A stretch of DNA of 64,000 nucleotides from Nostoc sp. DedSLP01 (GTDB lineage Bacteria; Cyanobacteriota; Cyanobacteriia; Cyanobacteriales; Nostocaceae), in NCBI GenBank assembly GCA_034530875.2, contig JAVRCJ020000026.1, positions 42,672 through 106,671 of the forward strand, given 5' to 3'. The notes under the pieces are model-generated. The model saw nothing but the letters and a program-made list of their open reading frames with translations. It was not told where the DNA came from and made no database searches. A program made the translations under genes and the position numbers. Shown here piece after piece: positions 1,981 through 59,817 of the stretch. Numbering within the stretch: the stretch's first letter is position 1; each line of letters begins with the position of its first letter.

Positions 1981-2022
1981 AAGGTTCTAACTGTCACAGC
2001 ATAGAAGCTCGGAGTGTTAATT

Positions 2023-2202
2023 ATGTCAAACGCTAACAAGACTACGCCTTCGGTTTCACAAGATCCTAATGCTTTACGCTGGGGCTTTACTCCTCAGAGT
2101 GAAAACTGGAACGGTCGTTTTGCGATGATTGGTTTTTTAGCTGCCATTCTAGTTGAAGCGTTTTCTGGTCAGGGGATTTTACACTTCTGGGGCATTTTAT
2201 AA
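2023..2202 (+). CDS. hli: High-light-inducible protein (HLIP, CAB/ELIP family)
   Basis: [19 protein letters not shown] contains the ExxNGRxAMxG motif, followed by one TM helix. Confidence 0.95.
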
Positions 2203-2330: not shown

Positions 2331-3440
2331 CTAGCGCGATGAGCGAAATATTACACGACCTGGGGATTCTTCGTGGTTGATTCGTGTATATACTCGCAGA
2401 CAAGTTAATACTTCCCCAGGAGTTCCGCCAAAATCTAGTTGTAAGTCATCTTTAGATGAGGCGCAGATATCTGCATAAAGTCCTGATAATTGGCGAATTC
2501 GGACTTCATAACCTTCATTAATCGCTCTATCGGCGGCTTTTTTGAGGATACGGCGCGATTCGGATTGTAGCTTACCCCACCAAGAATAGCGATCGGCTGG
2601 GGGTAGAAATACCAAAGAGTGTATTGCTTCATCCATATCAATCCAAGCACGCAAAATAGACACGGGATCGGCATTGTCTTCAGCTTTTTGGGTGCGTTGA
2701 CAGCGATCGCTTAAAGCATTAATGTATTGATGCCGCTGTTCTGATTTAGAGTGTAACGAGATGATATCGAAGCTACAAAGACTCTTTAAAGCGTGATATA
2801 AATCTGGTTCTATTTCCAGAAATTTGATATATAAAAATAGGAATCCGACTGCTAAATCGGATTCATTAACTTGGGAAGTTTGAGAATTTAAAAGTGCTTG
2901 CTGAGATAAACTTAATCCTTGAGTTTGAACAGAACCACTCAGTCCAGGATAGATAATTTCATCGCGGATAAAAGGAAGTTGATAGAGATTAGAACTATCA
3001 GCGATCGCGCCGACTTCTTGAGCCATATCTAAGCTGCGCTGTCGCCACAACGCACCCAATTCTTCTGGTATTCTTAGCAGCTTGCGTTGAATTTCATTCC
3101 ACAAATCTGAGTCAGTTTTACTTTGTAATTGGGAATTACCGAGATAGAAATTAAGTTCTGAATCAGAATCAAAAGCTTCCCTTAGATGATTGAGTTTTAA
3201 TGTATTTTGGGGAGAGATAATCGTATCTTCCCAACCAATATCTCGGTGTAAAGGTGTAGGCGCAGGTTGCAATAAATTATGAAGTTCTTGCAATAATTCA
3301 TCGCATAACTTGACTCCTGGATCTAGTGGAAATTCTGCACGAGCGTGATTTAAAGTAGCTTCGAGTCCGGAGAGAGTAAACCGCAATAATTGGCCTAGTT
3401 GGGAGTTTTGTATTTCTAATAATTGACGGAAATGTTGCAT
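2331..3440 (-). CDS. Hypothetical protein, helical, with a possible GrpE-like C-terminal beta region
   Basis: 369-aa ORF, last gene of a three-gene run. The tail GEVLTCLRVYTRINHEESPGRVIF resembles the GrpE end pattern (by-eye inference). Confidence 0.6.
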   Translation of the reverse strand: MQHFRQLLEIQNSQLGQLLRFTLSGLEATLNHARAEFPLDPGVKLCDELLQELHNLLQPAPTPLHRDIGWEDTIISPQNTLKLNHLREAFDSDSELNFYLGNSQLQSKTDSDLWNEIQRKLLRIPEELGALWRQRSLDMAQEVGAIADSSNLYQLPFIRDEIIYPGLSGSVQTQGLSLSQQALLNSQTSQVNESDLAVGFLFLYIKFLEIEPDLYHALKSLCSFDIISLHSKSEQRHQYINALSDRCQRTQKAEDNADPVSILRAWIDMDEAIHSLVFLPPADRYSWWGKLQSESRRILKKAADRAINEGYEVRIRQLSGLYADICASSKDDLQLDFGGTPGEVLTCLRVYTRINHEESPGRVIFRSSR

Positions 3441-3458
3441 GAAGATTACCTTTTTATC

Positions 3459-3564
3459 TCACGCAGAGGCGCAGAGGCGCGGAGAGAAAGAGGAGATTTT
3501 TTCTATCTCACACTAGGATGTAAGGCCTCAACAAAACTCTTTGCGTCTCTGCGTCTCTGCGTGA
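3459..3564. repeat. Intergenic inverted-repeat element (TCACGCAGAGGCGCAGAG...CTCTGCGTCTCTGCGTGA)
   Basis: Arms are built of 9-nt units. A shorter relative lies at 27235-27273. Confidence 0.8.
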
Positions 3565-3571
3565 AGTAATT

Positions 3572-6529
3572 CTAATGTATACCGCAAAATGGATCGCGTT
3601 CTTTATCAACTTCATTAGGTTGTAATTCTAATTCAGCAATATAAACGCATCCTTCTTCTTTGAGACATTCTTGATTTGTCGATCTCCAATAAGGTACTTC
3701 ACCTGCGTGCATCCGTAAAATACCTTGATTATCGAGAGTCACACGATATTGACAAGGATAATCTGTTGTAATGTCTGGTTTGCTGAGTGCGCCAATTCGT
3801 ATCCATTTTTTCGTTTGGGTTTCGGCGTCTGTTTGATAAATATAAAAGGTATGCTGGCCAGTTTTTGGGAAAGGAGGTAAGGGATTACTAATTAATCCGA
3901 TTCCTGATTGTGCTGCGCTATCATCCAAATAGTGAAATTCTTGGAAAGAGCGATCGCTATTTCCAACTTCAAATACTAGATGATAAGCATCTGCTCGATC
4001 CACAGTTGCAGATTCGATCACATTAACTGCAATATCACCATCATTTAAGTCTTTATTGGGGCGTTCTATAGCAATATTCCACTTTAATGTACCATCAGCA
4101 AATAGCGCTGAACTTTCTGAAATTAGATTTCCTAAATCAATGCCAGGAATGTCAATTAAATAATGGGGATTTCCTTGACAAAGTAAAACCTTAAATTCAA
4201 GCGTTTGGTCAATTTCAAACTGAATTTTGATTTTTTTGAGAAATGCTGCTTCTTCCATTCCTAACTTATTCATCAGGTTTTTACCGTCGAAGCTACCCCA
4301 AAGCCGTAAATCTCCTTCTTCGTAATCTTGGCGGTAGATAATATTAGTTAATTGTATCCCTTGCCAAGGAGTACGGACTTTGGCGACAGTCTCCCAAGGT
4401 GCTAGTTGATAAAGTTCTTGTCCGGCTCGGAATATAGTCAATAAATCGTTGCTTTGAGTTTTACGTTTGAAGTTACAGGGCAAATAATAAAATAGATTTT
4501 TTACATCAATTTCTAACTGATTGGCTCCCTTACGCAGTAAGGTTTTAGATTCTTCTGGATCGAATCTCAATCGGCGTAATTTTTCGGCATAGCAAGCACC
4601 GGCGGAGGTAGCTAATTTAGTAAATTCAAGGACAAATGTAATACGTTCTGGATTCCAAACAAAATACGGAGACTTGCTGAATTCTTGATAGATTTGGCGT
4701 TGCACTAAATCAAGGTTGCAAGTTTTACCAGATAAGATTAACCAATCAACTTTTTGAGAATTCCAAAAATATTTGGTAAGATTCTCAGGACGCAAACGGC
4801 TTTCCATTAATCCTTTAGCAATGCCGATCGCTTCTTTAATTCCGGAAACTGCGGCTCGTTGAAATTGCCGATTGTCTAGAGTGACGCAGATGTTATTTGG
4901 GTCTTTAACTGGGAATTTAATAGCACTTTGGCTGAGGAGTTCGGAAATTTCTTGTTCGGAAAGCGTAAAGGTTAGTAGAGAATTATTATTGGGTGCTTTT
5001 TGTCCAAGTTTTAGTTTAGCTGCTTCTGCATAATCCCACAGCAGATAAAATGTTTGTAGGCGTTGTGGTGCTTGTTGCCAACGAGTAGGTAATACTTTTT
5101 CAGCAATATCTAAAGCATCTTTATAAGCGACATCACCTTCTGGATTTTCCTTGTCCAAACATTTTAAAAGACTGCCAGTTTTGAATTTGCCTTGTTCTAA
5201 AAAACGCTCGTTTAATTCCGAGTTAATTAAATCTTCTAACTTTTCGCTTTCAATATTACCTGTGGTGACTGCTGTTAATACAAAGTCAGCGATCGCAACT
5301 TTCAAAAGTCGAAAAATTCGCAGTGTAATTAATTCACCACCTAGCTGTAAATGACCGGACGAACCTAATAGCTTAGGAGTCAATTTGTAATAACGTCCTC
5401 CTAAACCGCGGTCTTCATCATTAGCAAAAGTTGGGGTTTTATCTTCCAGAGTTAATTCTATTAAAGCTAAATCTGTGGTACCGCCGCCGATATCCAAAAC
5501 GAGGACATTTTGCGACCATTTATTTCCAGTTTGGCGACAACGAGTTTTGAAGGATTCGATACCAATATTCAGATTACCACCAAATTCTCGCCACAAAAAG
5601 AATATCGCCACAGAAACAGCTTCATCATAAGCAGTTTGGACATCATCAATTGCCAACTGTTCGACTAATTCTTTAACTTCCTTGCGAACAACAGGCGGGG
5701 CGACTGTTGGATAGGTAACAACTGCTGTTAACAAATCCCCTTCAGAAAATCTGCGTCGCGCCCGTTGGCGGTAGTCTTCAGTTAACTTTATTAAATGCGC
5801 CCAAGCAGATTGAATTAATTCTTTTGCGGTAATTGTTTCTTCCTTGCCATCCAAATTAACTGAAAACGATCGCTCTTGACCAAAATAGCGTTTTGGTGAA
5901 TGATGAAACCTGCTAATAATTTCCTTTAAACTACCGCTTGTACCTTGAGCGATCGCTTTTTTTCGATTATCTCTCGCTTCCCTACCCATCCGCAGTTGTA
6001 ATTTGCCTAAATCAGAAATTTCCGATTCACTAGGAATTTCTGTTTCGCGGCGGTCTATATCCAACACAACTGGAATGAGATTTTGCGATTCTAAGGTAGG
6101 AACGCGGAACACTTCATGATAGATTTGATATAGTTTTTTGCTGACAGCGCGACGGAATCTTTCGCTATTGCCTAAGCAAAGTTCAATTTGGCGAATTGCT
6201 TCTAAAAATCGTTCTTTGTTATCAGTTTCAAAAACTTCGCTTAATTTTCTTGGTTCTACTTCTAGGTTTTTACTAATTTCGAGAATAAACTTTTCCCAAT
6301 CATCATCGCTGACATCTGGTAATGCTACAGAAGCAGGAGAACTCAGCCATTGCGATAAGCGATCGCGCAATCGAATTTCTTGTTCTTTGGGTAAAATTTC
6401 AGCAATGGGTACTTCAATGGGATCGAAAAGAGTAACTGTAGAATTCGACGTCCCAAAATCTAATGCGAACCATCCCGGAAATCTTTTTTGTTGTTTATCA
6501 GTATAGTTGTTCAATTGAAAAGAGTTCAT
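3572..6529 (-). CDS. Atypical large Hsp70/actin-fold ATPase
   Basis: LDFGTSNS (phosphate 1), SPKRYFG, AVVTYP, DEAVSVA, LDIGGGTTD (phosphate 2), LGGE, AEAAKLKL and LILSG occur in Hsp70 order. 985 aa with large inserts and a non-DnaK C-terminus. Confidence 0.85.
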   Translation of the reverse strand: MNSFQLNNYTDKQQKRFPGWFALDFGTSNSTVTLFDPIEVPIAEILPKEQEIRLRDRLSQWLSSPASVALPDVSDDDWEKFILEISKNLEVEPRKLSEVFETDNKERFLEAIRQIELCLGNSERFRRAVSKKLYQIYHEVFRVPTLESQNLIPVVLDIDRRETEIPSESEISDLGKLQLRMGREARDNRKKAIAQGTSGSLKEIISRFHHSPKRYFGQERSFSVNLDGKEETITAKELIQSAWAHLIKLTEDYRQRARRRFSEGDLLTAVVTYPTVAPPVVRKEVKELVEQLAIDDVQTAYDEAVSVAIFFLWREFGGNLNIGIESFKTRCRQTGNKWSQNVLVLDIGGGTTDLALIELTLEDKTPTFANDEDRGLGGRYYKLTPKLLGSSGHLQLGGELITLRIFRLLKVAIADFVLTAVTTGNIESEKLEDLINSELNERFLEQGKFKTGSLLKCLDKENPEGDVAYKDALDIAEKVLPTRWQQAPQRLQTFYLLWDYAEAAKLKLGQKAPNNNSLLTFTLSEQEISELLSQSAIKFPVKDPNNICVTLDNRQFQRAAVSGIKEAIGIAKGLMESRLRPENLTKYFWNSQKVDWLILSGKTCNLDLVQRQIYQEFSKSPYFVWNPERITFVLEFTKLATSAGACYAEKLRRLRFDPEESKTLLRKGANQLEIDVKNLFYYLPCNFKRKTQSNDLLTIFRAGQELYQLAPWETVAKVRTPWQGIQLTNIIYRQDYEEGDLRLWGSFDGKNLMNKLGMEEAAFLKKIKIQFEIDQTLEFKVLLCQGNPHYLIDIPGIDLGNLISESSALFADGTLKWNIAIERPNKDLNDGDIAVNVIESATVDRADAYHLVFEVGNSDRSFQEFHYLDDSAAQSGIGLISNPLPPFPKTGQHTFYIYQTDAETQTKKWIRIGALSKPDITTDYPCQYRVTLDNQGILRMHAGEVPYWRSTNQECLKEEGCVYIAELELQPNEVDKERDPFCGIH

Positions 6530-6605
6530 TATAGTATCAAATGGTTATGTTTAATGCTGATTTTTTATTTAGGGCGATGCTTTAAACTGCATCTAATGAA
6601 ACATC

Positions 6606-9152
6606 TCAGTAAAAAACACCAGCAATATCTGAAAGAATCTGCAACCAACTAGGAACTGCAATTTCAATTGGAAAATCACCCGCTGTTAAATATCTCAGTA
6701 ATGTTTCTTTTTTCGAGAAGTTTTGCAAACTAGGAATAATTCCATCCAAAATGCCTTCTAGTTCGGAATTAATTTGCTGATTCACTTCACTAACATATTG
6801 CACTAAATGAAGGCTAGCACTAGCAGTAATTTCATCTCGTAGCCGCAGTATTAAAAGTTGATGATTGATAGATCTGGGTAAGCCTTGGCTTTTCTCTGGT
6901 GCCCAGTCGAAGATTTGACCAACGTTGTGTTTATCGTCTTGACGCGCTAGGGGAAAAATATTTTCTGGTGCAACGGTTTTGTCTGTGTTACTAATTTCAG
7001 AAATGATTGCTTCTTTCCATTCGTTGGGGTCGCATCCTAGTAAGAGCTTATAAAATAAATCGGCTTCTTCTACACCAAATTTGGTTTCGATTTCTTGTTC
7101 CATCTCTGGTTGGAGAATTGCTTTCAATTGTTCGCGTTCTGGGGCGACTTCATTTGACAATTGACTCAACAAATCTACCACTGCTTGACGAATGCGATCG
7201 CGGGCAAATTCTTCTACTTCTTTAACAGTTTTTTCAAATACTAGATAAAAATCATCGCTCTTTGTCGGCACAGAAGTATTAACGCGATTTCCTCTATCAA
7301 ATAATTTGCCAGCCGCACCTTTAGATTCAGTTAGAGCAATGCTACCATTGTTGATTTTATTGAACAGTAAAGTCCACTGACTCCAATTCAGTATTTTAAA
7401 CGTAAGTTCGTCTTTAACGACATCGCTCACAACAACACCGCGTCTGTCTTGAAGTGGTTCTTTTCCTAAAGTTTTTTGAAAATTCCTGTAGATTTTATCT
7501 AAACTTTCCACCACAAAACGCAACTCCAGAAAAGCAGGACTGTCTCCTGTGGGGATGCCTTGCTCGTGAATTTCATCTAAGATATCTTTCAGATGATCTT
7601 GTTGCTGACTTACTACATCAGCAGCTCTTTTAGTATCTTCATACAATTGCTTTAAACCATGAGTAGCGACATGATTTTGAATCAATTCTCGGAGCTTACT
7701 CAGACTACCATCTTGAGCAAAATAACCTAATTGTCTGCCTAAATAGCTGCGGGTATTTGATTCTAACAATGCTTGGCTTAAGCGTCGCCATTTATCTTGT
7801 AGCCGCTTAGATCTATCTAAATAATCAGGATAGTCTAAGTTAGCTAAAAACTCTGGCGAACCTGCTTTGACTTGACTCGAACGTTTCGCTAAATCAGCCA
7901 GTCCTAATAGTGGCGACAGTAAAACGATGCGGTCTTTTTGAGTTGTAAACGCCTGGGCGCCATCAATGGTGGTTTGCAAAACTTTGAGTTTTTGGAAAAC
8001 AGTTTCCTCGTCTAAATCTCGATCTTCAGTCAGTTGGTCGAGTTCTCTTTCGCCACCCTCATTCTCCAAAGGTAATTGGTCGAAGCGACCCACACCCACG
8101 AGAATTAAATCTTTCAAGTCTTGTCCTGGTCGCTGCTGCTGCATCATCGTAAAGATTTTATGAGCGCGATCGCTTCCCGGAGATTTACCATTGAGCAGTA
8201 CCAAAATTGTCTGTACTTCTGCCAATTCCCGCAGTGACAAAAAGGTATCTCTCGCACCGGAATTAGCAGCGCCCAAGCCGGGAAAATCGATCAGAATAAA
8301 TTTAGCAGCACCCGTAACATCCCAAATTTCCCGCGAGATTTTCACATCAATATCTACGCGGCGAATCAGTGGAAAGCTGTTTTGTAATAATTTCGTTGGT
8401 AGCCTCTGGGGTGGACTCGGTAACCGAATATGCGCTGGCGGTAGATCCTCAAAGCTGAGAGTTTGGATAGCCATCGGCTGTTCGACTAGCTGTAGCCCTT
8501 CGCGGGCAGTGGTAGCATCAATCTGGTAGCGTCCGCTACACATTACTTGACCATACGCTTGATAAGCCCGAATGAATAAGACTAACTCTCTCAATAAATA
8601 CCGTAGTTCGAGATTGTTAGAACTGTTCCATGCTTCCTCACACCAGTCAATAATATCTTTCCCAGAGTTAAGCTTTGACACTGGTATGGGAGGCAGCCCT
8701 GCCGCCGTTGTCCGTTTATTGGCTTCTCCCAGCATGAAACGCAGACACTCATGCACCCCCTCGTGGGAAAGATATTCTACTGTAAAATTACTGAGTTGCG
8801 TAGTTGCAAAGTCATCTTGGGGTATGATGTGCAGGGCGGTGACGTTACCTGTAGTTGGGTTTTCACTTACTGGCAAAGCATCTGCATATCCAATCAAACT
8901 GCCTAAAAGTAAAGTTTTGCCGCTGCTGAATTCTCCCATCACACCAATTTTCACAGGCGAAGTGGCAAGATCTACAGTTTTTTCTGCCGCTTCTCGCAGA
9001 CGACGCAGACAATCATCAAGGCTAGCCGGAACCCAATCTTCTTGTTGTGAAGGATATTCGGGTACAGAATCTATCTTCCGGAGGATGAATTCACCATACT
9101 CTTTAAAACTAGCTAGTTTGTCTGTTTCCATAGAGTAGTTTCCGCCTAACAT
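6606..9152 (-). CDS. Dynamin-like GTPase (alternative start at 9131)
   Basis: G1 GEFSSGKT, G2 PTT, G3 DFPG, G4-position GRFD, then a long helical region. Confidence 0.85.
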   Translation of the reverse strand: MLGGNYSMETDKLASFKEYGEFILRKIDSVPEYPSQQEDWVPASLDDCLRRLREAAEKTVDLATSPVKIGVMGEFSSGKTLLLGSLIGYADALPVSENPTTGNVTALHIIPQDDFATTQLSNFTVEYLSHEGVHECLRFMLGEANKRTTAAGLPPIPVSKLNSGKDIIDWCEEAWNSSNNLELRYLLRELVLFIRAYQAYGQVMCSGRYQIDATTAREGLQLVEQPMAIQTLSFEDLPPAHIRLPSPPQRLPTKLLQNSFPLIRRVDIDVKISREIWDVTGAAKFILIDFPGLGAANSGARDTFLSLRELAEVQTILVLLNGKSPGSDRAHKIFTMMQQQRPGQDLKDLILVGVGRFDQLPLENEGGERELDQLTEDRDLDEETVFQKLKVLQTTIDGAQAFTTQKDRIVLLSPLLGLADLAKRSSQVKAGSPEFLANLDYPDYLDRSKRLQDKWRRLSQALLESNTRSYLGRQLGYFAQDGSLSKLRELIQNHVATHGLKQLYEDTKRAADVVSQQQDHLKDILDEIHEQGIPTGDSPAFLELRFVVESLDKIYRNFQKTLGKEPLQDRRGVVVSDVVKDELTFKILNWSQWTLLFNKINNGSIALTESKGAAGKLFDRGNRVNTSVPTKSDDFYLVFEKTVKEVEEFARDRIRQAVVDLLSQLSNEVAPEREQLKAILQPEMEQEIETKFGVEEADLFYKLLLGCDPNEWKEAIISEISNTDKTVAPENIFPLARQDDKHNVGQIFDWAPEKSQGLPRSINHQLLILRLRDEITASASLHLVQYVSEVNQQINSELEGILDGIIPSLQNFSKKETLLRYLTAGDFPIEIAVPSWLQILSDIAGVFY

Positions 9153-54231: not shown

Positions 54232-54375
54232 ATAGCCTCGAGTACACTCTAGCGAATAAGACAAGGGGTTTAAGCACCTTGTCTTAATTTTTGTGTACGG
54301 AATTGCAGTGTTAATAATTTTCTACGTAATTGGGAATAATTAAAATATAACCCCTTGCGGGACAGAACAGGGGTA

Positions 54376-57300
54376 ATGCAAATTTTATCACTTTATAATC
54401 AAAAATCAATGCCAAATCGCACTGGATATCAAATCAACTCGACTCTCCATGAAGGAATTCAAACGATTATTTATCAAACGCAAAGGCCAAACACGCAACA
54501 GCAAGTTATTATCAAGCTGCTTAAAAATGAATATCCTACCCTCGAAGCCTTTACTCGGCTGAAAAATGAGTATCAAATTCAGCAATATTTAGACCATCCG
54601 CATATAGTTAAAGCCATCAGTTTAGAAACCTTTGACAATCGTTTAGGACTGCTATTAGAAGATTTTGGCGGTCAGTCTTTAGCCCAAATTTTACAAACAG
54701 AAAAGCTTGATTTAATTAACTATTTAAAAATTGTTATCCAACTAACTAAAGCTTTAGATTATTTGCATAAAAACCAAATCATTCATAAAGATATCAAACC
54801 TAGTAACATCATTATTAACTGCGAGACGGGTATTGTTAAACTCACGGATTTTGGTATAGCTTCCCGCCTAAATAAGGAAAATCCCCAATTTACTAACCCT
54901 AATTCTGTTGAAGGTACACTTGCTTATATGTCTCCCGAACAAACTGGGAGAATGAATCGAATTATCGATTATCGCAGTGACTTTTATTCTCTTGGTGTGA
55001 CTTTATATGAAATGCTCACCAAGCAAACACCATTTTTTAGCGAAGATCCCCTAGAAATAGTTTATAGCCACATTGCTGTCGAACCAAAAAAACCACAGTC
55101 ATTAAATCCTAAGATTCCTAACGCTGTCTCTGAAATTATCATGAAGCTGATGGCAAAAAATGCTGAAGATAGATATCAAAGCGCCATAGGATTATTAGCA
55201 GACTTAGAATTATGCCTCAACCAGTTAGAAACTCAGAATACAATTACTAATTTTGTTCCAGGCCGTTTAGATATTTTAAGCCAGCTAATAATTCCTCAAA
55301 AATTATATGGTCGCGAACAACAAGTTAATGAACTGTTAGCAGCATTTGAGCGCGTTACATCCGGAAATAGTGAAATGATGCTAGTTTCTGGTTATTCTGG
55401 TATTGGTAAATCAGTTTTAGTCAACGAAGTTAATAAACCGATTACTCGCAGACAAGGTTATTTTATTTCTGGTAAATTTGACCAATTAAAACGAAATATA
55501 CCTTATGCTTCTTTAATTCAAGCTTTTGCTTATTTAATGCGTTATTTACTCACAGAGAATAACGAAAAGATAGAAATATGGCGTCATAAAATATTATCAG
55601 CTTTAGGAACCAATGGAAAAGTCATTACTGATGTCATTCCAGAAGTGGAATTAATTATCGGTACGCAGCCAGAAGTCGCTCAAATTGGGGCAACAGAATC
55701 ACAAAACCGCTTCAATCGCGTTTTTAAAGAATTTATCCAAGTTTTTACTCAAAAAGAACACCCATTAGTCATATTTTTAGACGATTTGCAATGGGCAGAT
55801 TCAGCCACATTAAATTTAATCCAACTGTTGATAACTGACAGCGACAGTAAACACTTATTATTTATTGGGGCATATAGAGATAATGAAGTTAGTCCAGCAC
55901 ATCCATTAATTCAAAAAATAGAAGAAATTAAGAATACAGGCACAATTGTTAATAATCTGGTGTTGCAATCTTTAAATTTAGAAAATGTAACTCAGTTAGT
56001 TACTGAAACTCTCCAACAAACTGAAACTGGAGTTTTGAACCAGCCTATTATCCAATTAGCAGAATTAATTTGTAATAAAACAGGCGGGAATCCCTTCTTC
56101 ATCACACAATTAATTCAGGCACTTTATCAAGAAAAACTTTTAATATTTAACTTTATTAATACTCAATGGGAGTGGAATTTAGAAGAAATTCAAGCAATTG
56201 GAATTATTGACAAAAATGTAGTAGAACTGGTTGCTAGTCGGGTTGAAAAGCTACCAAAAGCTACTCAAGATGTTTTAAAGCTAGCAGCTTGTGTAGGTGA
56301 CAGATTTAGTTTAGATATTTTATCGATAGTCAATGAAAAGTCAGCTTCTGCGACAGCCAACGATTTACATTCTGCTTTGCAAGCAGGATTAATTTTACCT
56401 TTAAGTGAAGCTTACCGCGTTCCTTTAGTTTTTAATCAAGAAGAGGCGGTGAATTTAAATTTTGATACTTCACGAGTTGGCTATAAGTTCTTGCATGACA
56501 GAGTACAACAAGCAGCATATTCTTTGATTCCAGAAGAACTGAAGAAATCGACTCATTTAAAAATCGGTCACTTACTGCTGCAAAATATACCCCAGGAAGA
56601 AATAGAAGCAAATATTTTTGATATCGTCAATCAGCTGAATGTAGGTATTGTTAATCTCAAAGAGCAATCTGAAAAAACGGAATTAGCACGATTAAATTTA
56701 ATTGCTGGGCAAAAAGCTAAAGCTTCTACAGCTTATGAAGCTGCTCTGAAATACTTAACAACTGGCATAGAACTTTTAAGTATAGACTCTTGGCAAACTG
56801 AATATAACTTAACTGTAGGTTTATATGAAGGAGCTGCAGAGTTAGCGTATTTAAGCGGTGATTTTGAGCAGATGCAGCAATGGGCTGAGGTAGTAGAGCA
56901 AGAAGCTAAAATTCTTTTAGATAAAGTCAAAGTTTATGAAATAAAAATTATCGCTTTTATCATTCAAAGCAAGCAAATCGAAGCGATTAAGATAGCAGTA
57001 TCGACTCTCAAATTGTTAGGAATTAGCTTTCCTGATGAACCGACATCAGTTGATATTCAGCGAGGGATGGATGAAATTGCTGCTTCGTTGCAAGAAAAAG
57101 TCATTGCGGATTTGATTAATTTACCATTAATGACCGATCCGAATAAGATTGCAGCTATGAGAATTTTAATGGGAGTTCTTCCCGCAGCTTTTCAAACTGC
57201 TCCGGCAATGATGCCAATTATCGTGTGTGAAATGGTGAATTTGTCCTTAAAATATGGCAATACGGCTGTATCTGCTTATGGTTATAGTCTTTATGGATTA

Positions 57301-59817
57301 CTTCTTTGTGGAGTTCAAGGAGAAATAGATTCTGGCTATGAATTTGGTAAATTAGCTTCGAGTTTAGTCTCTGAATTTAATGCTCAAGAACTTAAAGCTA
57401 AAATTCTGACGGTTGTTAGCGCTCATGTTATGCATTGGAAGGAGCATGTTAAGCATACATTAAAATCAGCAATGGCAGGATATTCTAGTGGTTTGGAAAC
57501 TGGAGATTTAGAATATGCTGGCTATTGTGGTTACATTTATCCCTATCATTCATTTTGGTTAGGTAAAGAACTTGCGATTTTAAAAAAGGAACTAGTAGCT
57601 TATTGTGATTCCCTGAAAAAAATCAAGCAACAAGTAGCTTTTACTTGGAATTCAATATATTTACAAACAGCTATCAATTTGCAAGGAAGTTGGGAAAATG
57701 CGAACTGTTTAATTGGTGAAGCTTACAACGAACAAAGTATGCTACCGATTCATCAGCAACTCAATGACCTTTATACAATTAATCATCTATTTGTAAATAA
57801 GCTGATGCTCTCTTACTTATTTGGAGAGTATTTTAAAGCTATCGAAAATGCTGCGATCGCAGAAAATTCTTTGGGTGGTGTTACAGGGTTATTTGTCGTT
57901 CCAATTTTCTATTTTTACGATTCTTTAGCCCAGTTGGCTATCTATCATACTGCTAAAGAGTCCGAGCAGCAAGCTATTTGCAAAAAAGTTGAAGCTAACC
58001 AGCAAAAAATGGAACTTTGGGCTACTTACGCTCCCACAAATCATTTACACAGATTTTATCTTGTGGAAGCACAACGATATCAAGTTTTGGGTAAAAAACT
58101 GGAGGCAATGGACTATTATGAAAAATCGATTGTTAAATCTCAAGAAAATAATTTTCTCCAGGAAGAAGCTTTAGCTTATGAGTTAGCAGGAAAGTTTTAT
58201 CAATCTCTAGGTAAAGAATTAATTTCTCAAACTTATATAACTAAAGCCTATTATACCTATATTCGTTGGGGTGCGATCGCTAAAGTTAAACACTTAGAAT
58301 CACAGTACCCTTTTCTCATAGGACAAACTACTAATATAGAAACTTCCATTTCCAAACTAGATAAAATCCAGCTTACTACTACCACAACGACTAATAGCAG
58401 CTTAAGCGATTTTTTAGACTTTAATGCATTCATTAAGTTTTCGCAAGCGATTACTAATGAAATTGTTTTAGAAAATTTGTTGACCAAGTTAATCAAAATC
58501 TTACTAGAAAACGCTGCCGCGCACAAAGTATTACTACTCTTACTGAAAGAGAATCAACTATATATCGAAGCTTCGGGGAATACTACTGAAAACCTAGTAA
58601 CAGTTTTACACTCTATTCCTGTTGAAACCTATCAGGATTTACCGCTTACTGTAATTAACTACGTTTGGCGAACTCAGCAATATCTAGTTTTAAATGATGC
58701 CGTAATTGCAGAACCCTTCAATCTTGATATCTATATTCAAGAATCTCAAACAAAGTCAATCTTTTGTTTACCGATTATTTATCAATCAAAACTTACTGGT
58801 ATTATTTATTTAGAAAATAAGTTATCATCAGGAGCCTTTATTCCAGAAAGGGTAGAGGTCTTAAAAGTTTTAGTTTCTCAAATGGCTATTGCCATAGAAA
58901 ATGCGCGTTTGTATGCAAGAGAACAAGATAAGTCTAAGCAATTACAGCAGTCATTTCAAGATTTACAACAGGCACAACTACAACTTATCCAAAGCGAAAA
59001 AATGTCATCGCTGGGAAATTTAGTTGCAGGTGTAGCACACGAAATCAACAACCCTATTGCTTTTATTACAGGTAGTATAGCCCAAGCTAAAGATACTGTT
59101 AAAGATTTAATTGATTATTTGCAACTTTACCGAACAAAATTCCCTAATCCTGGTAATGAGATTGAAGAAAAAGGCGAAGAAATAGATATAGATTTTATAA
59201 TAACTGATTTACCGAAAATGATTGACGGAATGACCGTAGGTACACAGCGTATTCGTAACATTAGTACTTCTCTGCGTACTTTTTCTCGGGCTGATACAAC
59301 TTCTAAAGTATTAGCTAATATCCATGAAGGAATTGATAGTACCTTAATGATTTTACAGCATCGCTTAAAAGCAGATTCTAACCGTCCAGCTATCCAAGTC
59401 ATCAAGAATTATGGAGAGATTCCATTAGTAAAATGCTATTTGGGACAGTTGAATCAGGTGTTTATGAATATTCTGGCAAATGCGATCGATGCTTTAGAAG
59501 AAGCAAATATCGGTCGTAATTTTATGGAGATTCAAGAAAATTATTCCAACATTATCACTATTTTCACTCACATAAGTGAAGATAATAAGAATGCAATAAT
59601 TAAATTTCGAGATAATGCTAAAGGAATATCTCCAGAAGTTCAAGCCTGCATATTTGAAAATCTATTTACTACAAAAGGTGTGGGTAAAGGTACTGGGTTA
59701 GGATTATCTATTAGCCGTCAAATTATAGTTGAAAACCATGCAGGAAGTTTAATTTGCGAATCAGCTATAGGAGAAGGAACAGAATTTATAATTTCTATTC
59801 CAATTTCTGGAGAATAA
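54376..59817 (+). CDS. Ser/Thr kinase - AAA ATPase - GAF - histidine kinase fusion
   Basis: HKDIKPSN, DFG, YMSPEQ, GYSGIGKS, LDDLQW, a GAF region, AHEINNP and FTTKGVGKGTGLGL. Start uncertain (54355, 54376 or 54409). Confidence 0.95.
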   Translation: MQILSLYNQKSMPNRTGYQINSTLHEGIQTIIYQTQRPNTQQQVIIKLLKNEYPTLEAFTRLKNEYQIQQYLDHPHIVKAISLETFDNRLGLLLEDFGGQSLAQILQTEKLDLINYLKIVIQLTKALDYLHKNQIIHKDIKPSNIIINCETGIVKLTDFGIASRLNKENPQFTNPNSVEGTLAYMSPEQTGRMNRIIDYRSDFYSLGVTLYEMLTKQTPFFSEDPLEIVYSHIAVEPKKPQSLNPKIPNAVSEIIMKLMAKNAEDRYQSAIGLLADLELCLNQLETQNTITNFVPGRLDILSQLIIPQKLYGREQQVNELLAAFERVTSGNSEMMLVSGYSGIGKSVLVNEVNKPITRRQGYFISGKFDQLKRNIPYASLIQAFAYLMRYLLTENNEKIEIWRHKILSALGTNGKVITDVIPEVELIIGTQPEVAQIGATESQNRFNRVFKEFIQVFTQKEHPLVIFLDDLQWADSATLNLIQLLITDSDSKHLLFIGAYRDNEVSPAHPLIQKIEEIKNTGTIVNNLVLQSLNLENVTQLVTETLQQTETGVLNQPIIQLAELICNKTGGNPFFITQLIQALYQEKLLIFNFINTQWEWNLEEIQAIGIIDKNVVELVASRVEKLPKATQDVLKLAACVGDRFSLDILSIVNEKSASATANDLHSALQAGLILPLSEAYRVPLVFNQEEAVNLNFDTSRVGYKFLHDRVQQAAYSLIPEELKKSTHLKIGHLLLQNIPQEEIEANIFDIVNQLNVGIVNLKEQSEKTELARLNLIAGQKAKASTAYEAALKYLTTGIELLSIDSWQTEYNLTVGLYEGAAELAYLSGDFEQMQQWAEVVEQEAKILLDKVKVYEIKIIAFIIQSKQIEAIKIAVSTLKLLGISFPDEPTSVDIQRGMDEIAASLQEKVIADLINLPLMTDPNKIAAMRILMGVLPAAFQTAPAMMPIIVCEMVNLSLKYGNTAVSAYGYSLYGLLLCGVQGEIDSGYEFGKLASSLVSEFNAQELKAKILTVVSAHVMHWKEHVKHTLKSAMAGYSSGLETGDLEYAGYCGYIYPYHSFWLGKELAILKKELVAYCDSLKKIKQQVAFTWNSIYLQTAINLQGSWENANCLIGEAYNEQSMLPIHQQLNDLYTINHLFVNKLMLSYLFGEYFKAIENAAIAENSLGGVTGLFVVPIFYFYDSLAQLAIYHTAKESEQQAICKKVEANQQKMELWATYAPTNHLHRFYLVEAQRYQVLGKKLEAMDYYEKSIVKSQENNFLQEEALAYELAGKFYQSLGKELISQTYITKAYYTYIRWGAIAKVKHLESQYPFLIGQTTNIETSISKLDKIQLTTTTTTNSSLSDFLDFNAFIKFSQAITNEIVLENLLTKLIKILLENAAAHKVLLLLLKENQLYIEASGNTTENLVTVLHSIPVETYQDLPLTVINYVWRTQQYLVLNDAVIAEPFNLDIYIQESQTKSIFCLPIIYQSKLTGIIYLENKLSSGAFIPERVEVLKVLVSQMAIAIENARLYAREQDKSKQLQQSFQDLQQAQLQLIQSEKMSSLGNLVAGVAHEINNPIAFITGSIAQAKDTVKDLIDYLQLYRTKFPNPGNEIEEKGEEIDIDFIITDLPKMIDGMTVGTQRIRNISTSLRTFSRADTTSKVLANIHEGIDSTLMILQHRLKADSNRPAIQVIKNYGEIPLVKCYLGQLNQVFMNILANAIDALEEANIGRNFMEIQENYSNIITIFTHISEDNKNAIIKFRDNAKGISPEVQACIFENLFTTKGVGKGTGLGLSISRQIIVENHAGSLICESAIGEGTEFIISIPISGE

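What the first reader, a model, noticed from the sequence alone, without database searches (positions are those of the whole stretch)
2331..9152. Dynamin-like GTPase + giant atypical Hsp70 + GrpE-like protein: candidate dedicated chaperone/membrane-remodelling or defence module
Seen: three co-oriented genes with short gaps (76 and 131 bp). Gene 1 has dynamin G1-G3 motifs (GEFSSGKT, PTT, DFPG), with GRFD where NKxD is usual. Gene 2 keeps the Hsp70 nucleotide-binding motifs in order but is 985 aa, with a long insert after phosphate-1 and a C-terminus unlike the DnaK substrate-binding domain. Gene 3 ends in GEVLTCLRVYTRINHEESPGRVIF after helical sequence. Known: GrpE is the Hsp70 nucleotide-exchange factor; bacterial dynamin-like proteins act in membrane repair and phage resistance; proteobacterial SrfB/SrfC is a loosely analogous pair. 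Inference: a private Hsp70/exchange-factor pair that controls assembly of the dynamin polymer, with no adjacent J-protein. I know of no functional description of this triad in cyanobacteria.
Basis: partly seen in the sequence, partly recalled or inferred. Interest (0 to 1): 0.8.

Follow-up and report, generated by a model that had tools for sequence, protein, structure and literature searches.

The report
Dynamin, lidless Hsp70, GrpE-like trio
Nearly all heterocyst-forming cyanobacteria keep a three-gene set (a dynamin-like GTPase, an oversized Hsp70 without its lid, and a partner ending in a GrpE-like head) that looks like a private chaperone-controlled polymer machine, has been glimpsed in print only in pieces, and has never been tested.

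Summary
Observation confirmed: three co-oriented genes (848, 985, 369 aa; gaps 76/131 bp). Gene 1 is dynamin-like with no membrane-spanning segment. Gene 3 has no GrpE sequence match, but its modelled last ~60-110 residues match GrpE (Foldseek's top 8, all weak). The set is single-copy in 114 of 120 genomes of the host family, found in 0 of 263 other cyanobacterial genomes sampled, lost all-or-none, under purifying selection, with scattered relatives in actinomycetes. It is the 'chaperone clade' of Jilly 2018 and very probably alr1146-alr1148, listed heterocyst-clade signature genes induced by nitrogen starvation. Six genomes lacking it keep nifD, so it is accessory. A side clade is fused to TIR or iSTAND-MoxR-vWA conflict modules. 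Best reading (0.5): dedicated Hsp70/exchange-factor pair cycling a dynamin polymer in membrane upkeep of differentiating filaments; defence 0.3. This scan noted the same trio twice before on other genomes.

The parts
6606..9152 (-). Gene 1 (D): dynamin-like TRAFAC GTPase, 848 aa, soluble by hydropathy
   Evidence: Pfam Dynamin_N E 1.8e-6, 28.5 bits over cut-off 27; 36 of 36 orthologs hit Dynamin_N; 1 of 36 sequences has a 19-residue window at hydropathy 1.6 or more
8913..8936 (-). P-loop GEFSSGKT of gene 1
8079..8090 (-). G4-position motif GRFD (GRFN in most orthologs)
   Evidence: assignment to G4 is by position (inference)
3572..6529 (-). Gene 2 (H): divergent Hsp70-family ATPase, 985 aa; lacks the ~145-aa N-terminal domain that most orthologs outside the Nostoc group carry
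4565..6478 (-). Hsp70 nucleotide-binding domain (about residues 18-655) with a long insert after phosphate-1
   Evidence: hhalign to the genome's own DnaK NBDs: probability 97.6, E 3.7e-12, 266 columns
4172..4489 (-). Hsp70 SBD-beta-like domain (about residues 681-786), preceded by a linker-like LEIDV (672-676) and apparently completed by a strand from the C-terminal tail
   Evidence: AF2 model pLDDT 81; VIA wide top 7 rows are Hsp70-family or like domains, BiP Z 7.5 rmsd 3.5 over 105; second look 50 of 50 rows, BiP Z 9.6, DnaK 393-505 Z 8.4
3695..4036 (-). Second beta domain (about residues 832-945) in place of the helical lid; possibly a duplicated SBD-beta (unproven)
   Evidence: all-beta in the model; hhalign to DnaK SBD only 2%, no PDB hit, shuffle tests not significant
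2331..3440 (-). Gene 3 (G): 369-aa protein of an unnamed family; helical hairpin, small alpha/beta middle part, four-helix bundle and GrpE-like beta head
   Evidence: no Pfam/NCBIfam/PADLOC match; AF2 pLDDT 94
2334..2507 (-). GrpE-like beta head of gene 3 (residues 312-369)
   Evidence: Foldseek ranks 1-8 are GrpE chains, E 0.035-0.59; VIA GrpEL1 9bls_B Z 6.3, rmsd 2.8, 57 aligned; E. coli GrpE 1dkg_B Z 5.9, rmsd 3.9, 89 aligned over 259-368
2014..2202 (+). Convergent small ORF closing the unit; looks like a high-light-inducible protein (label recalled, not from a call); not part of the module
   Evidence: present in 79 of 80 Nostoc loci, 0 of the divergent loci

Best explanation
A dedicated three-part machine. 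SHOWN: a soluble dynamin-like GTPase, an Hsp70-type ATPase with intact catalytic motifs, linker and a lidless substrate-binding beta domain, and a partner with a GrpE-fold head are inherited, kept and lost as one unit across the heterocyst-forming cyanobacteria. INFERRED: gene 3 is the private nucleotide-exchange factor of gene 2 (its own four-helix bundle may replace GrpE's dimer); gene 2 grips a specific client rather than general unfolded proteins (no lid, extra beta domain, invariant C-terminal R[DN]PFxGxH tail); that client is the dynamin, whose polymer it primes or dismantles in an ATP cycle, as Hsp70s do for other membrane-shaping polymers. INFERRED, weaker: the polymer serves membrane remodelling or repair in filaments during nitrogen starvation and differentiation, as a helpful but dispensable function.
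For: Unit: D-H-G order in 74 of 80 Nostoc loci, all three full-length in 25 of 40 regions cut from divergent genomes, H-G overlapping by one base in an actinobacterial-type contig, all three undetected together in 6 genomes and broken together in G297. Core-like behaviour: 114 of 120 family genomes, almost always one copy; dN/dS 0.08-0.15; no match in 72,556 plasmid records or viral contigs (close relatives only). Anatomy. Physiology: alr1146/47/48 (847/1128/364 aa, lengths matching relatives of D/H/G) are heterocyst-clade signature genes with fold changes 9.1/2.5/8.7 at 12 h and 5.3/1.8/7.7 at 21 h of nitrogen starvation (PMC4365693 Table 6; PMC2823733); in 7 of the 40 divergent regions D follows a nitrogenase-associated (TIGR01616) gene on the same strand.
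Against: GrpE likeness is structural only and weak (best Foldseek E 0.035; Z about 6, tied with generic helical bundles; hhalign to GrpE under 4%; 0 of 108 members hit the GrpE Pfam). No membrane-inserting segment in the dynamin and no PDB sequence match for it. All 6 genomes lacking the set, and both with broken copies, retain nifD matches, so it is not needed to keep nitrogen fixation genes. Gene 3 lies far from D-H in G071, G251 and G026, D far from H in G308, and a DUF2887/Rpn gene often sits between D and H. No conserved NtcA or DIF1 motif upstream; 56 of the 93 signature genes in that table are induced, so induction is not special. The alr1146-48 identification rests on lengths, order and taxon range, not on a sequence comparison. 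A side clade sits in conflict-system settings (rival 1).
Confidence: 0.5

Rival explanations
1. A counter-invader system of multicellular bacteria: the Hsp70 senses an invader protein through its beta domains, and with the GrpE-like partner acts as a nucleotide-dependent threshold that releases the dynamin to polymerise, containing infection or killing the cell; in heterocyst formers it became fixed because filaments share cytoplasm.
For: Outside the family, gene 3 relatives are named from filamentous or complex bacteria: Okeania, Moorena, Aerosakkonema, Streptomyces, Sphaerisporangium, a Planctomycetota bin, Hsp70 from Nocardia. A separate dynamin clade (L111, L112, L113; support 1.0) holds a TIR-fused copy, a copy behind a caspase gene, and in the same genome as L112 a copy fused at the effector end of an EAD1-iSTAND/MoxR/vWA system. 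DO-GTPase systems pair a TRAFAC GTPase with HSP70 and GrpE (PMC7159879 section 29). Weak PADLOC LeoA matches, E 3e-4.
Against: Single copy in 114 of 120 family genomes with strong purifying selection and stable flanks; not on plasmids; conflict-type settings in only 3 of the 115 genomes with a match; the ternary systems are described as capturing modules from ordinary cell subsystems (PMC7159879 abstract), so capture does not show a defence role for the parent; no defence family reaches a cut-off.
Confidence: 0.3
2. Gene 2 is not a chaperone for the dynamin but a structural, actin-fold ATPase that co-assembles with it (in the manner suggested by its remote likeness to SrfB), and gene 3 is an adaptor whose GrpE-like head only docks on it.
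For: Gene 2's best Pfam match is SrfB, not HSP70 (E 9e-6 versus 0.097), Atlas neighbours include SrfB clusters at 0.95; large inserts, no lid, extra domains; no J-protein gene seen next to the trio (judged by eye).
Against: SrfB match covers 75 of 992 profile positions and is below cut-off; SrfC family hit 0 of 36 dynamins; linker, SBD-beta fold and a GrpE-fold partner are all chaperone-cycle parts.
Confidence: 0.15
3. The genes are neighbours by descent only and work independently.
For: Gene 3 or D is relocated in 4 genomes and insertions between D and H are common.
Against: All-or-none absence in 6 genomes, joint decay in G297, order kept down to about 45% identity and H-G coupling in an actinobacterial-type contig.
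Confidence: 0.05

Closest known systems
'Chaperone clade' of cyanobacterial dynamin-like proteins (Jilly et al. 2018, PMC5827413)
   Same: DLP followed by a DnaK-domain gene; its 11 members are all from heterocyst-forming genera; it lists Cylst_0498 (gene 3's ortholog in that strain is Cylst_0501) and Nos7524_3124 with 'Virulence factor SrfB' downstream. Almost certainly this operon.
   Different: The paper gives one paragraph of speculation, no experiment, no mention of GrpE or a third gene (0 occurrences), no domain anatomy or distribution.
alr1146-alr1147-alr1148 of Anabaena PCC 7120, Nostocales/heterocyst signature genes (Gupta & Mathews 2010, PMC2823733; Simm et al. 2015, PMC4365693)
   Same: Three consecutive genes of 847, 1128 and 364 aa, heterocyst-clade specific, with outside matches only in Streptomyces and Frankia; close relatives here measure 849, 1128-1133 and 364-377 aa.
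   Different: Listed as unknown function, not recognised as dynamin, Hsp70 or GrpE-like; identity with this trio is inferred, not sequence-checked.
DnaK-GrpE(-DnaJ) chaperone system
   Same: Hsp70 NBD, linker and SBD-beta; partner with GrpE-fold head.
   Different: No lid, second beta domain, large inserts, far below DnaK and GrpE family cut-offs; the genome has its own three DnaKs and a canonical GrpE elsewhere; no J-protein gene alongside.
DO-GTPase GAP1-N2 conflict systems with HSP70 and GrpE (Kaur et al. 2020, PMC7159879)
   Same: TRAFAC GTPase plus HSP70 plus GrpE in multicellular bacteria.
   Different: Those need GAP1 and FNIII/DnaJ components, have Walker B glutamate and are nearly absent from cyanobacteria; here a long dynamin-like GTPase, three genes only, near-core.
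SrfABC
   Same: Actin/Hsp70-fold SrfB weakly matches gene 2; SrfC as a dynamin-like partner is recalled, not from a call.
   Different: SrfB below cut-off, no SrfC match; third gene unrelated as far as tested.
LeoABC and other tandem bacterial DLPs (NosDLP, SynDLP)
   Same: Dynamin-type G domain followed by a long, probably helical, region.
   Different: NF041922 14.9 bits versus cut-off 325; single DLP, no membrane-spanning segment, no PDB sequence match.

Membership tests
Jilly 'chaperone clade' DLPs | cyanobacterial DLP with a DnaK-domain gene directly downstream | tested here: met
Jilly 'chaperone clade' DLPs | sequence groups with the listed members | tested here: inconclusive
   listed proteins were not aligned; link is by locus tags Cylst_0498/Cylst_0501 and the SrfB label
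alr1146-alr1148 signature genes | orthology by sequence | tested here: inconclusive
   lengths, order and outside taxa match; PCC 7120 sequences not obtained; flank check did not settle it
Dynamin-like GTPases | G1-G3 motifs and Dynamin_N match | tested here: met
Dynamin-like GTPases | canonical G4 [NT]KxD | tested here: not met
   GRF[N/D] in 36 sequences
Dynamin-like GTPases | helical stalk fold | not tested
Dynamin-like GTPases | membrane-binding element | tested here: inconclusive
   no transmembrane-strength segment; amphipathic or partner-mediated binding not excluded
Dynamin-like GTPases | GTP hydrolysis and polymerisation | not testable with these tools
   needs biochemistry
Hsp70/DnaK | actin-fold NBD with catalytic motifs | tested here: met
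Hsp70/DnaK | linker and SBD-beta | tested here: met
Hsp70/DnaK | alpha-helical lid | tested here: not met
   after the first beta domain the model has strands and only two helices of 4-5 residues
Hsp70/DnaK | curated family score (DnaK, HSP70) | tested here: not met
   11-13 bits versus cut-offs 20.6, 648, 822
GrpE | sequence profile match | tested here: not met
   0 of 108 members at E 0.1; hhalign under 4%
GrpE | C-terminal beta head fold | tested here: met
   weak scores but the only rows covering 312-369
GrpE | homodimer with long N-terminal coiled coil | tested here: inconclusive
   monomer model has a 45-residue hairpin and an intrachain four-helix bundle, no long helix; dimer not modelled
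GrpE | nucleotide exchange on Hsp70 | not testable with these tools
   needs biochemistry
SrfABC | SrfB and SrfC family matches over cut-off | tested here: not met
   SrfB 24.4 bits versus 27.1 over 75 of 992 positions; no SrfC family among 13 families hit by 36 dynamins
DO-GTPase GAP1-N2 systems | GAP1 gene and Walker B glutamate | tested here: not met
   DFPG in 36 of 36; no GAP1 Pfam match in the three genes, flanks are a kinase and a methylase
LeoABC / PADLOC Dynamins | LeoA score and LeoBC partner | tested here: not met

The most novel reading that the evidence does not exclude
A bacterial polymer-recycling machine of a kind not yet shown: a lidless Hsp70 with a doubled substrate domain and its own single-chain GrpE-fold exchange factor drives assembly and disassembly of one dynamin, without a J-protein; it arose in conflict systems of multicellular bacteria and was domesticated at the origin of heterocyst-forming cyanobacteria, where it reshapes or seals membranes in differentiating filaments. 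It would turn three unexplained heterocyst signature genes into a testable cytoskeletal module.
Probability: 0.25. Interest if true: 0.8.

Novelty: new variant of a known kind. Interest (0 to 1): 0.55.

Why it matters
Few genes mark the heterocyst-forming clade this cleanly, and how heterocysts rebuild their membranes and how filaments contain damage or infection are open questions. Tying the 'chaperone clade' dynamins to nitrogen-induced signature genes in a genetically tractable strain, and giving each gene a fold-based role, makes the module directly testable with three deletions and three purified proteins. It is not wholly new: the dynamin-DnaK pair and (probably) the three locus tags are in print, and this scan has reported the trio on two other genomes.

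Tried and rejected
Complex prediction of gene 2 (18-652) with gene 3 (2-366): no answer, median 0.02, runs 0.59/0.00/0.02; no evidence either way. Idea that gene 3 is an internal GrpE duplication: hhalign of its two halves 1.7%, middle part barely tested by the fold searches; unproven. Idea that the second beta domain is a duplicated SBD-beta: hhalign 2%, no PDB hit, shuffle z 0.6-1.9, but the confirmed first domain scores no better, z -1.0 to -0.1; unresolved. Sequence searches of PDB for genes 1 and 3: nothing meaningful. Foldseek on the Hsp70 tail ranks beta-propellers first at probability 0.15 or less, Hsp70 SBDs from rank 20 at probability 0.96-1.0. Plasmids and viral contigs: none. Promoter scan: 17 sites versus 19.9 expected; NtcA and DIF1 motifs not enriched upstream. 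Essential-for-diazotrophy reading rejected. Tree congruence of the three genes: only the dynamin tree finished. Dynamin neighbour in actinobacteria could not be checked: only 2 metagenome loci, neither reaching that far. Literature searches without a functional study.
Full report
1. Observation. The three ORFs exist as described: gene 1 (D) 6606-9152, 848 aa; gene 2 (H) 3572-6529, 985 aa; gene 3 (G) 2331-3440, 369 aa; all on the minus strand, gaps 76 and 131 bp. They are bounded by a divergent PAS/GAF histidine kinase and, past a convergent small ORF, a Dam-type methylase. The host is a Nostoc-like genome of 8.57 Mb with one copy of D and of H. Against 73 related loci dN/dS is 0.081 (D), 0.076 (H) and 0.152 (G).

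2. Gene 1. Dynamin_N is hit over its cut-off and by 36 of 36 orthologs. G1-G3 are invariant; the G4 position reads GRF[N/D], with N in at least 90% of the 36, so nucleotide preference is an open point (that Asp-to-Asn here shifts base preference in other GTPases is recalled). Only 1 of 36 sequences reaches transmembrane-level hydropathy. No PDB sequence matches. I did not model it.

3. Gene 2. The N-terminal 655 residues align with the genome's own DnaK ATPase domains (probability 97.6, E 3.7e-12) and keep the catalytic motifs across 54 sequences down to 25% identity. An AF2 model of residues 655-985 (pLDDT 81) says otherwise: among 48,161 chains the seven best rows are Hsp70-family substrate domains or like folds (BiP Z 7.5, Sse1, mortalin, RAC, DnaK; one is a ciliary doublet chain), above unrelated rows at 4.4 or less; in the second look all 50 rows shown are of this kind, best Z 9.6. 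The match uses residues about 681-786 plus a strand near the C-terminus. No helical lid follows; a second beta domain (about 832-945) does. Its strand pattern recalls SBD-beta, but no test supported that. Most orthologs outside the Nostoc group carry a further N-terminal domain of about 145 aa, absent here and from this genome; in many Nostoc loci a DUF2887/Rpn gene lies at that spot.

4. Gene 3. No family library names it; 241 representatives at E 0.001 or better define its own family. Sequence profiles do not link it to GrpE. The model is confident (pLDDT 94) and Foldseek's first 8 rows are all GrpE chains, though none passes E 0.001. VIA aligns residues 312-369 to the GrpEL1 head (Z 6.3, rmsd 2.8, 57 residues) and 259-368 to E. 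coli GrpE (Z 5.9), tied with generic helical bundles that cover other parts. So: GrpE-like head, yes; GrpE family member, no; exchange activity, untested.

5. Distribution. In an even sample of 300 other genomes of the phylum, H is found in 36 of 37 of the host's family and 0 of 263 others; a G profile gives 36 of 37 and one weak partial hit. D is found in 114 of 120 family genomes. That this family equals the heterocyst-forming clade is my inference from named hits. The sample is rich in small unicellular genomes, and G relatives are named from non-heterocystous Okeania, Moorena and Aerosakkonema, and from Streptomyces, Sphaerisporangium and a Planctomycetota bin, H from Nocardia, so the set is sporadic elsewhere, not absent. 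Order D-H-G holds in 74 of 80 Nostoc loci; 4 misses are near contig ends, 2 are not. Of 40 regions cut from divergent genomes, 25 hold all three full-length; others show G or D relocated, insertions, locus ends or decay. The 6 genomes without D also lack H and G (95-100% complete); G297 has all three broken, G306 D and H broken (G not searched there). All 8 keep nifD matches, 6 over the cut-off and 2 in pieces: the set is dispensable for keeping nitrogenase genes.

6. Settings that point two ways. In 7 of the 40 divergent regions D follows a nitrogenase-associated gene (TIGR01616) on the same strand, usually with a cupin gene before it, 0.6-1.6 kb and more away; these may be kin and count as few events. 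In 3 genomes an extra copy belongs to a long-branch clade with an N-terminal TIR domain (L111), an upstream caspase gene (L113), or, beside L112, fusion behind an EAD1-iSTAND, MoxR, vWA gene run (L122). In an actinobacterial-type contig H and G overlap by one base and are followed by an Hsp70-like/FHA gene.

7. What is in print. Jilly et al. 2018 (PMC5827413; I read passages, abstract and the whole supplement) define a 'chaperone clade' of 11 cyanobacterial DLPs with a DnaK-domain gene downstream, including Cylst_0498, three tags from G's ortholog Cylst_0501; no third gene, no experiment. Gupta & Mathews 2010 (PMC2823733; passages and a supplement search) list alr1146 (847 aa), alr1147 (1128) and alr1148 (364) as Nostocales-specific hypotheticals. 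Simm et al. 2015 (PMC4365693; abstract and section 13) list all three among unknown heterocyst-specific genes, with outside matches only in Streptomyces and Frankia and fold changes after nitrogen step-down of 9.1/5.3, 2.5/1.8 and 8.7/7.7 (data from Flaherty 2011, not seen). Lengths, order and outside taxa fit D, H, G, but I could not compare sequences. Kaur et al. 2020 (PMC7159879; abstract, passages, sections 20, 27, 29) describe GTPase-HSP70-GrpE conflict systems that are nearly absent from cyanobacteria; Kaur 2021 and a ParA preprint (passages) add nothing specific. Hsp70 control of the membrane-shaping VIPP1 polymer is seen in search listings only. Ten searches found no functional study; the library lacks most subscription papers, and expression or proteomics supplements, which I did not search, may hold more on alr1146-48.

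8. Reading. The parts are those of a chaperone cycle built for one client, and they travel with one dynamin. I put 0.5 on a dedicated Hsp70/exchange-factor pair that cycles the dynamin polymer for membrane remodelling or repair in nitrogen-starved, differentiating filaments; 0.3 on a fixed multicellular defence system; 0.15 on a structural co-polymer; 0.05 on mere neighbourhood. Shown: anatomy, linkage, distribution, dispensability. Inferred: every physical interaction and the cellular role.

9. Verdict. Real, conserved and untested; a new variant of known kinds rather than a new kind. The pair and probably the locus tags are in print, and the scan reported the trio on two other genomes. Interest 0.55.

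Noticed in passing
L122:264-9259 (G314): A dynamin copy with intact P-loop is fused at the end of an EAD1-iSTAND, MoxR, vWA gene run and followed by the Hsp70; a second D-H-G set lies just upstream (L112). A dynamin effector is not mentioned in the text of Kaur 2020 (0 occurrences).
   Followed up: partly
L111:10813-14451; L113:9963-17277: TIR-fused dynamin in one genome; caspase-domain gene upstream and a split Hsp70 gene in another.
   Followed up: partly
L104, L106, L159, L160, L166, L167, L168 upstream of the dynamin: Nitrogenase-associated ArsC-like gene, mostly with a cupin gene, on the same strand before the operon.
   Followed up: partly
L003-L082 between D and H: DUF2887/Rpn-family gene, whole or decayed, often inserted where other genera have the Hsp70's N-terminal domain; gap ranges 68-2361 bp.
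   Followed up: partly
L162:3090-7258; L156:6403-9261: Other insertions between D and H: a small gene plus a FxSxx-type NTPase/TPR gene; ankyrin-like genes with a transposase (labels by eye).
   Followed up: no
L093:2028-3320: Degenerate Hsp70-like domain fused to FHA directly after gene 3 in an actinobacterial-type contig.
   Followed up: no
window 3575-3598: The Hsp70 ends in a nearly invariant R[DN]PFxGxH tail, kept from Nostoc to Nocardia-type sequences; role unknown.
   Followed up: no
window 2778-2816 (gene 3 residues 209-221): A conserved ExDPxLHHAL-type motif in the middle of gene 3 resembles the FDPxxHEA motif of the genome's GrpE, but lies outside the modelled head; chance or relic.
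   Followed up: partly
P0243 (Okeania): Gene 3 ortholog with its N-terminal helical hairpin repeated three times.
   Followed up: no
G000:C25:63541-63957 and several family genomes: Extra short GrpE-domain genes beyond the canonical one, up to 5 matches in G020.
   Followed up: no
window 54355-59817: An 1820-aa ORF in a low-GC stretch (33-37%); not examined.
   Followed up: no
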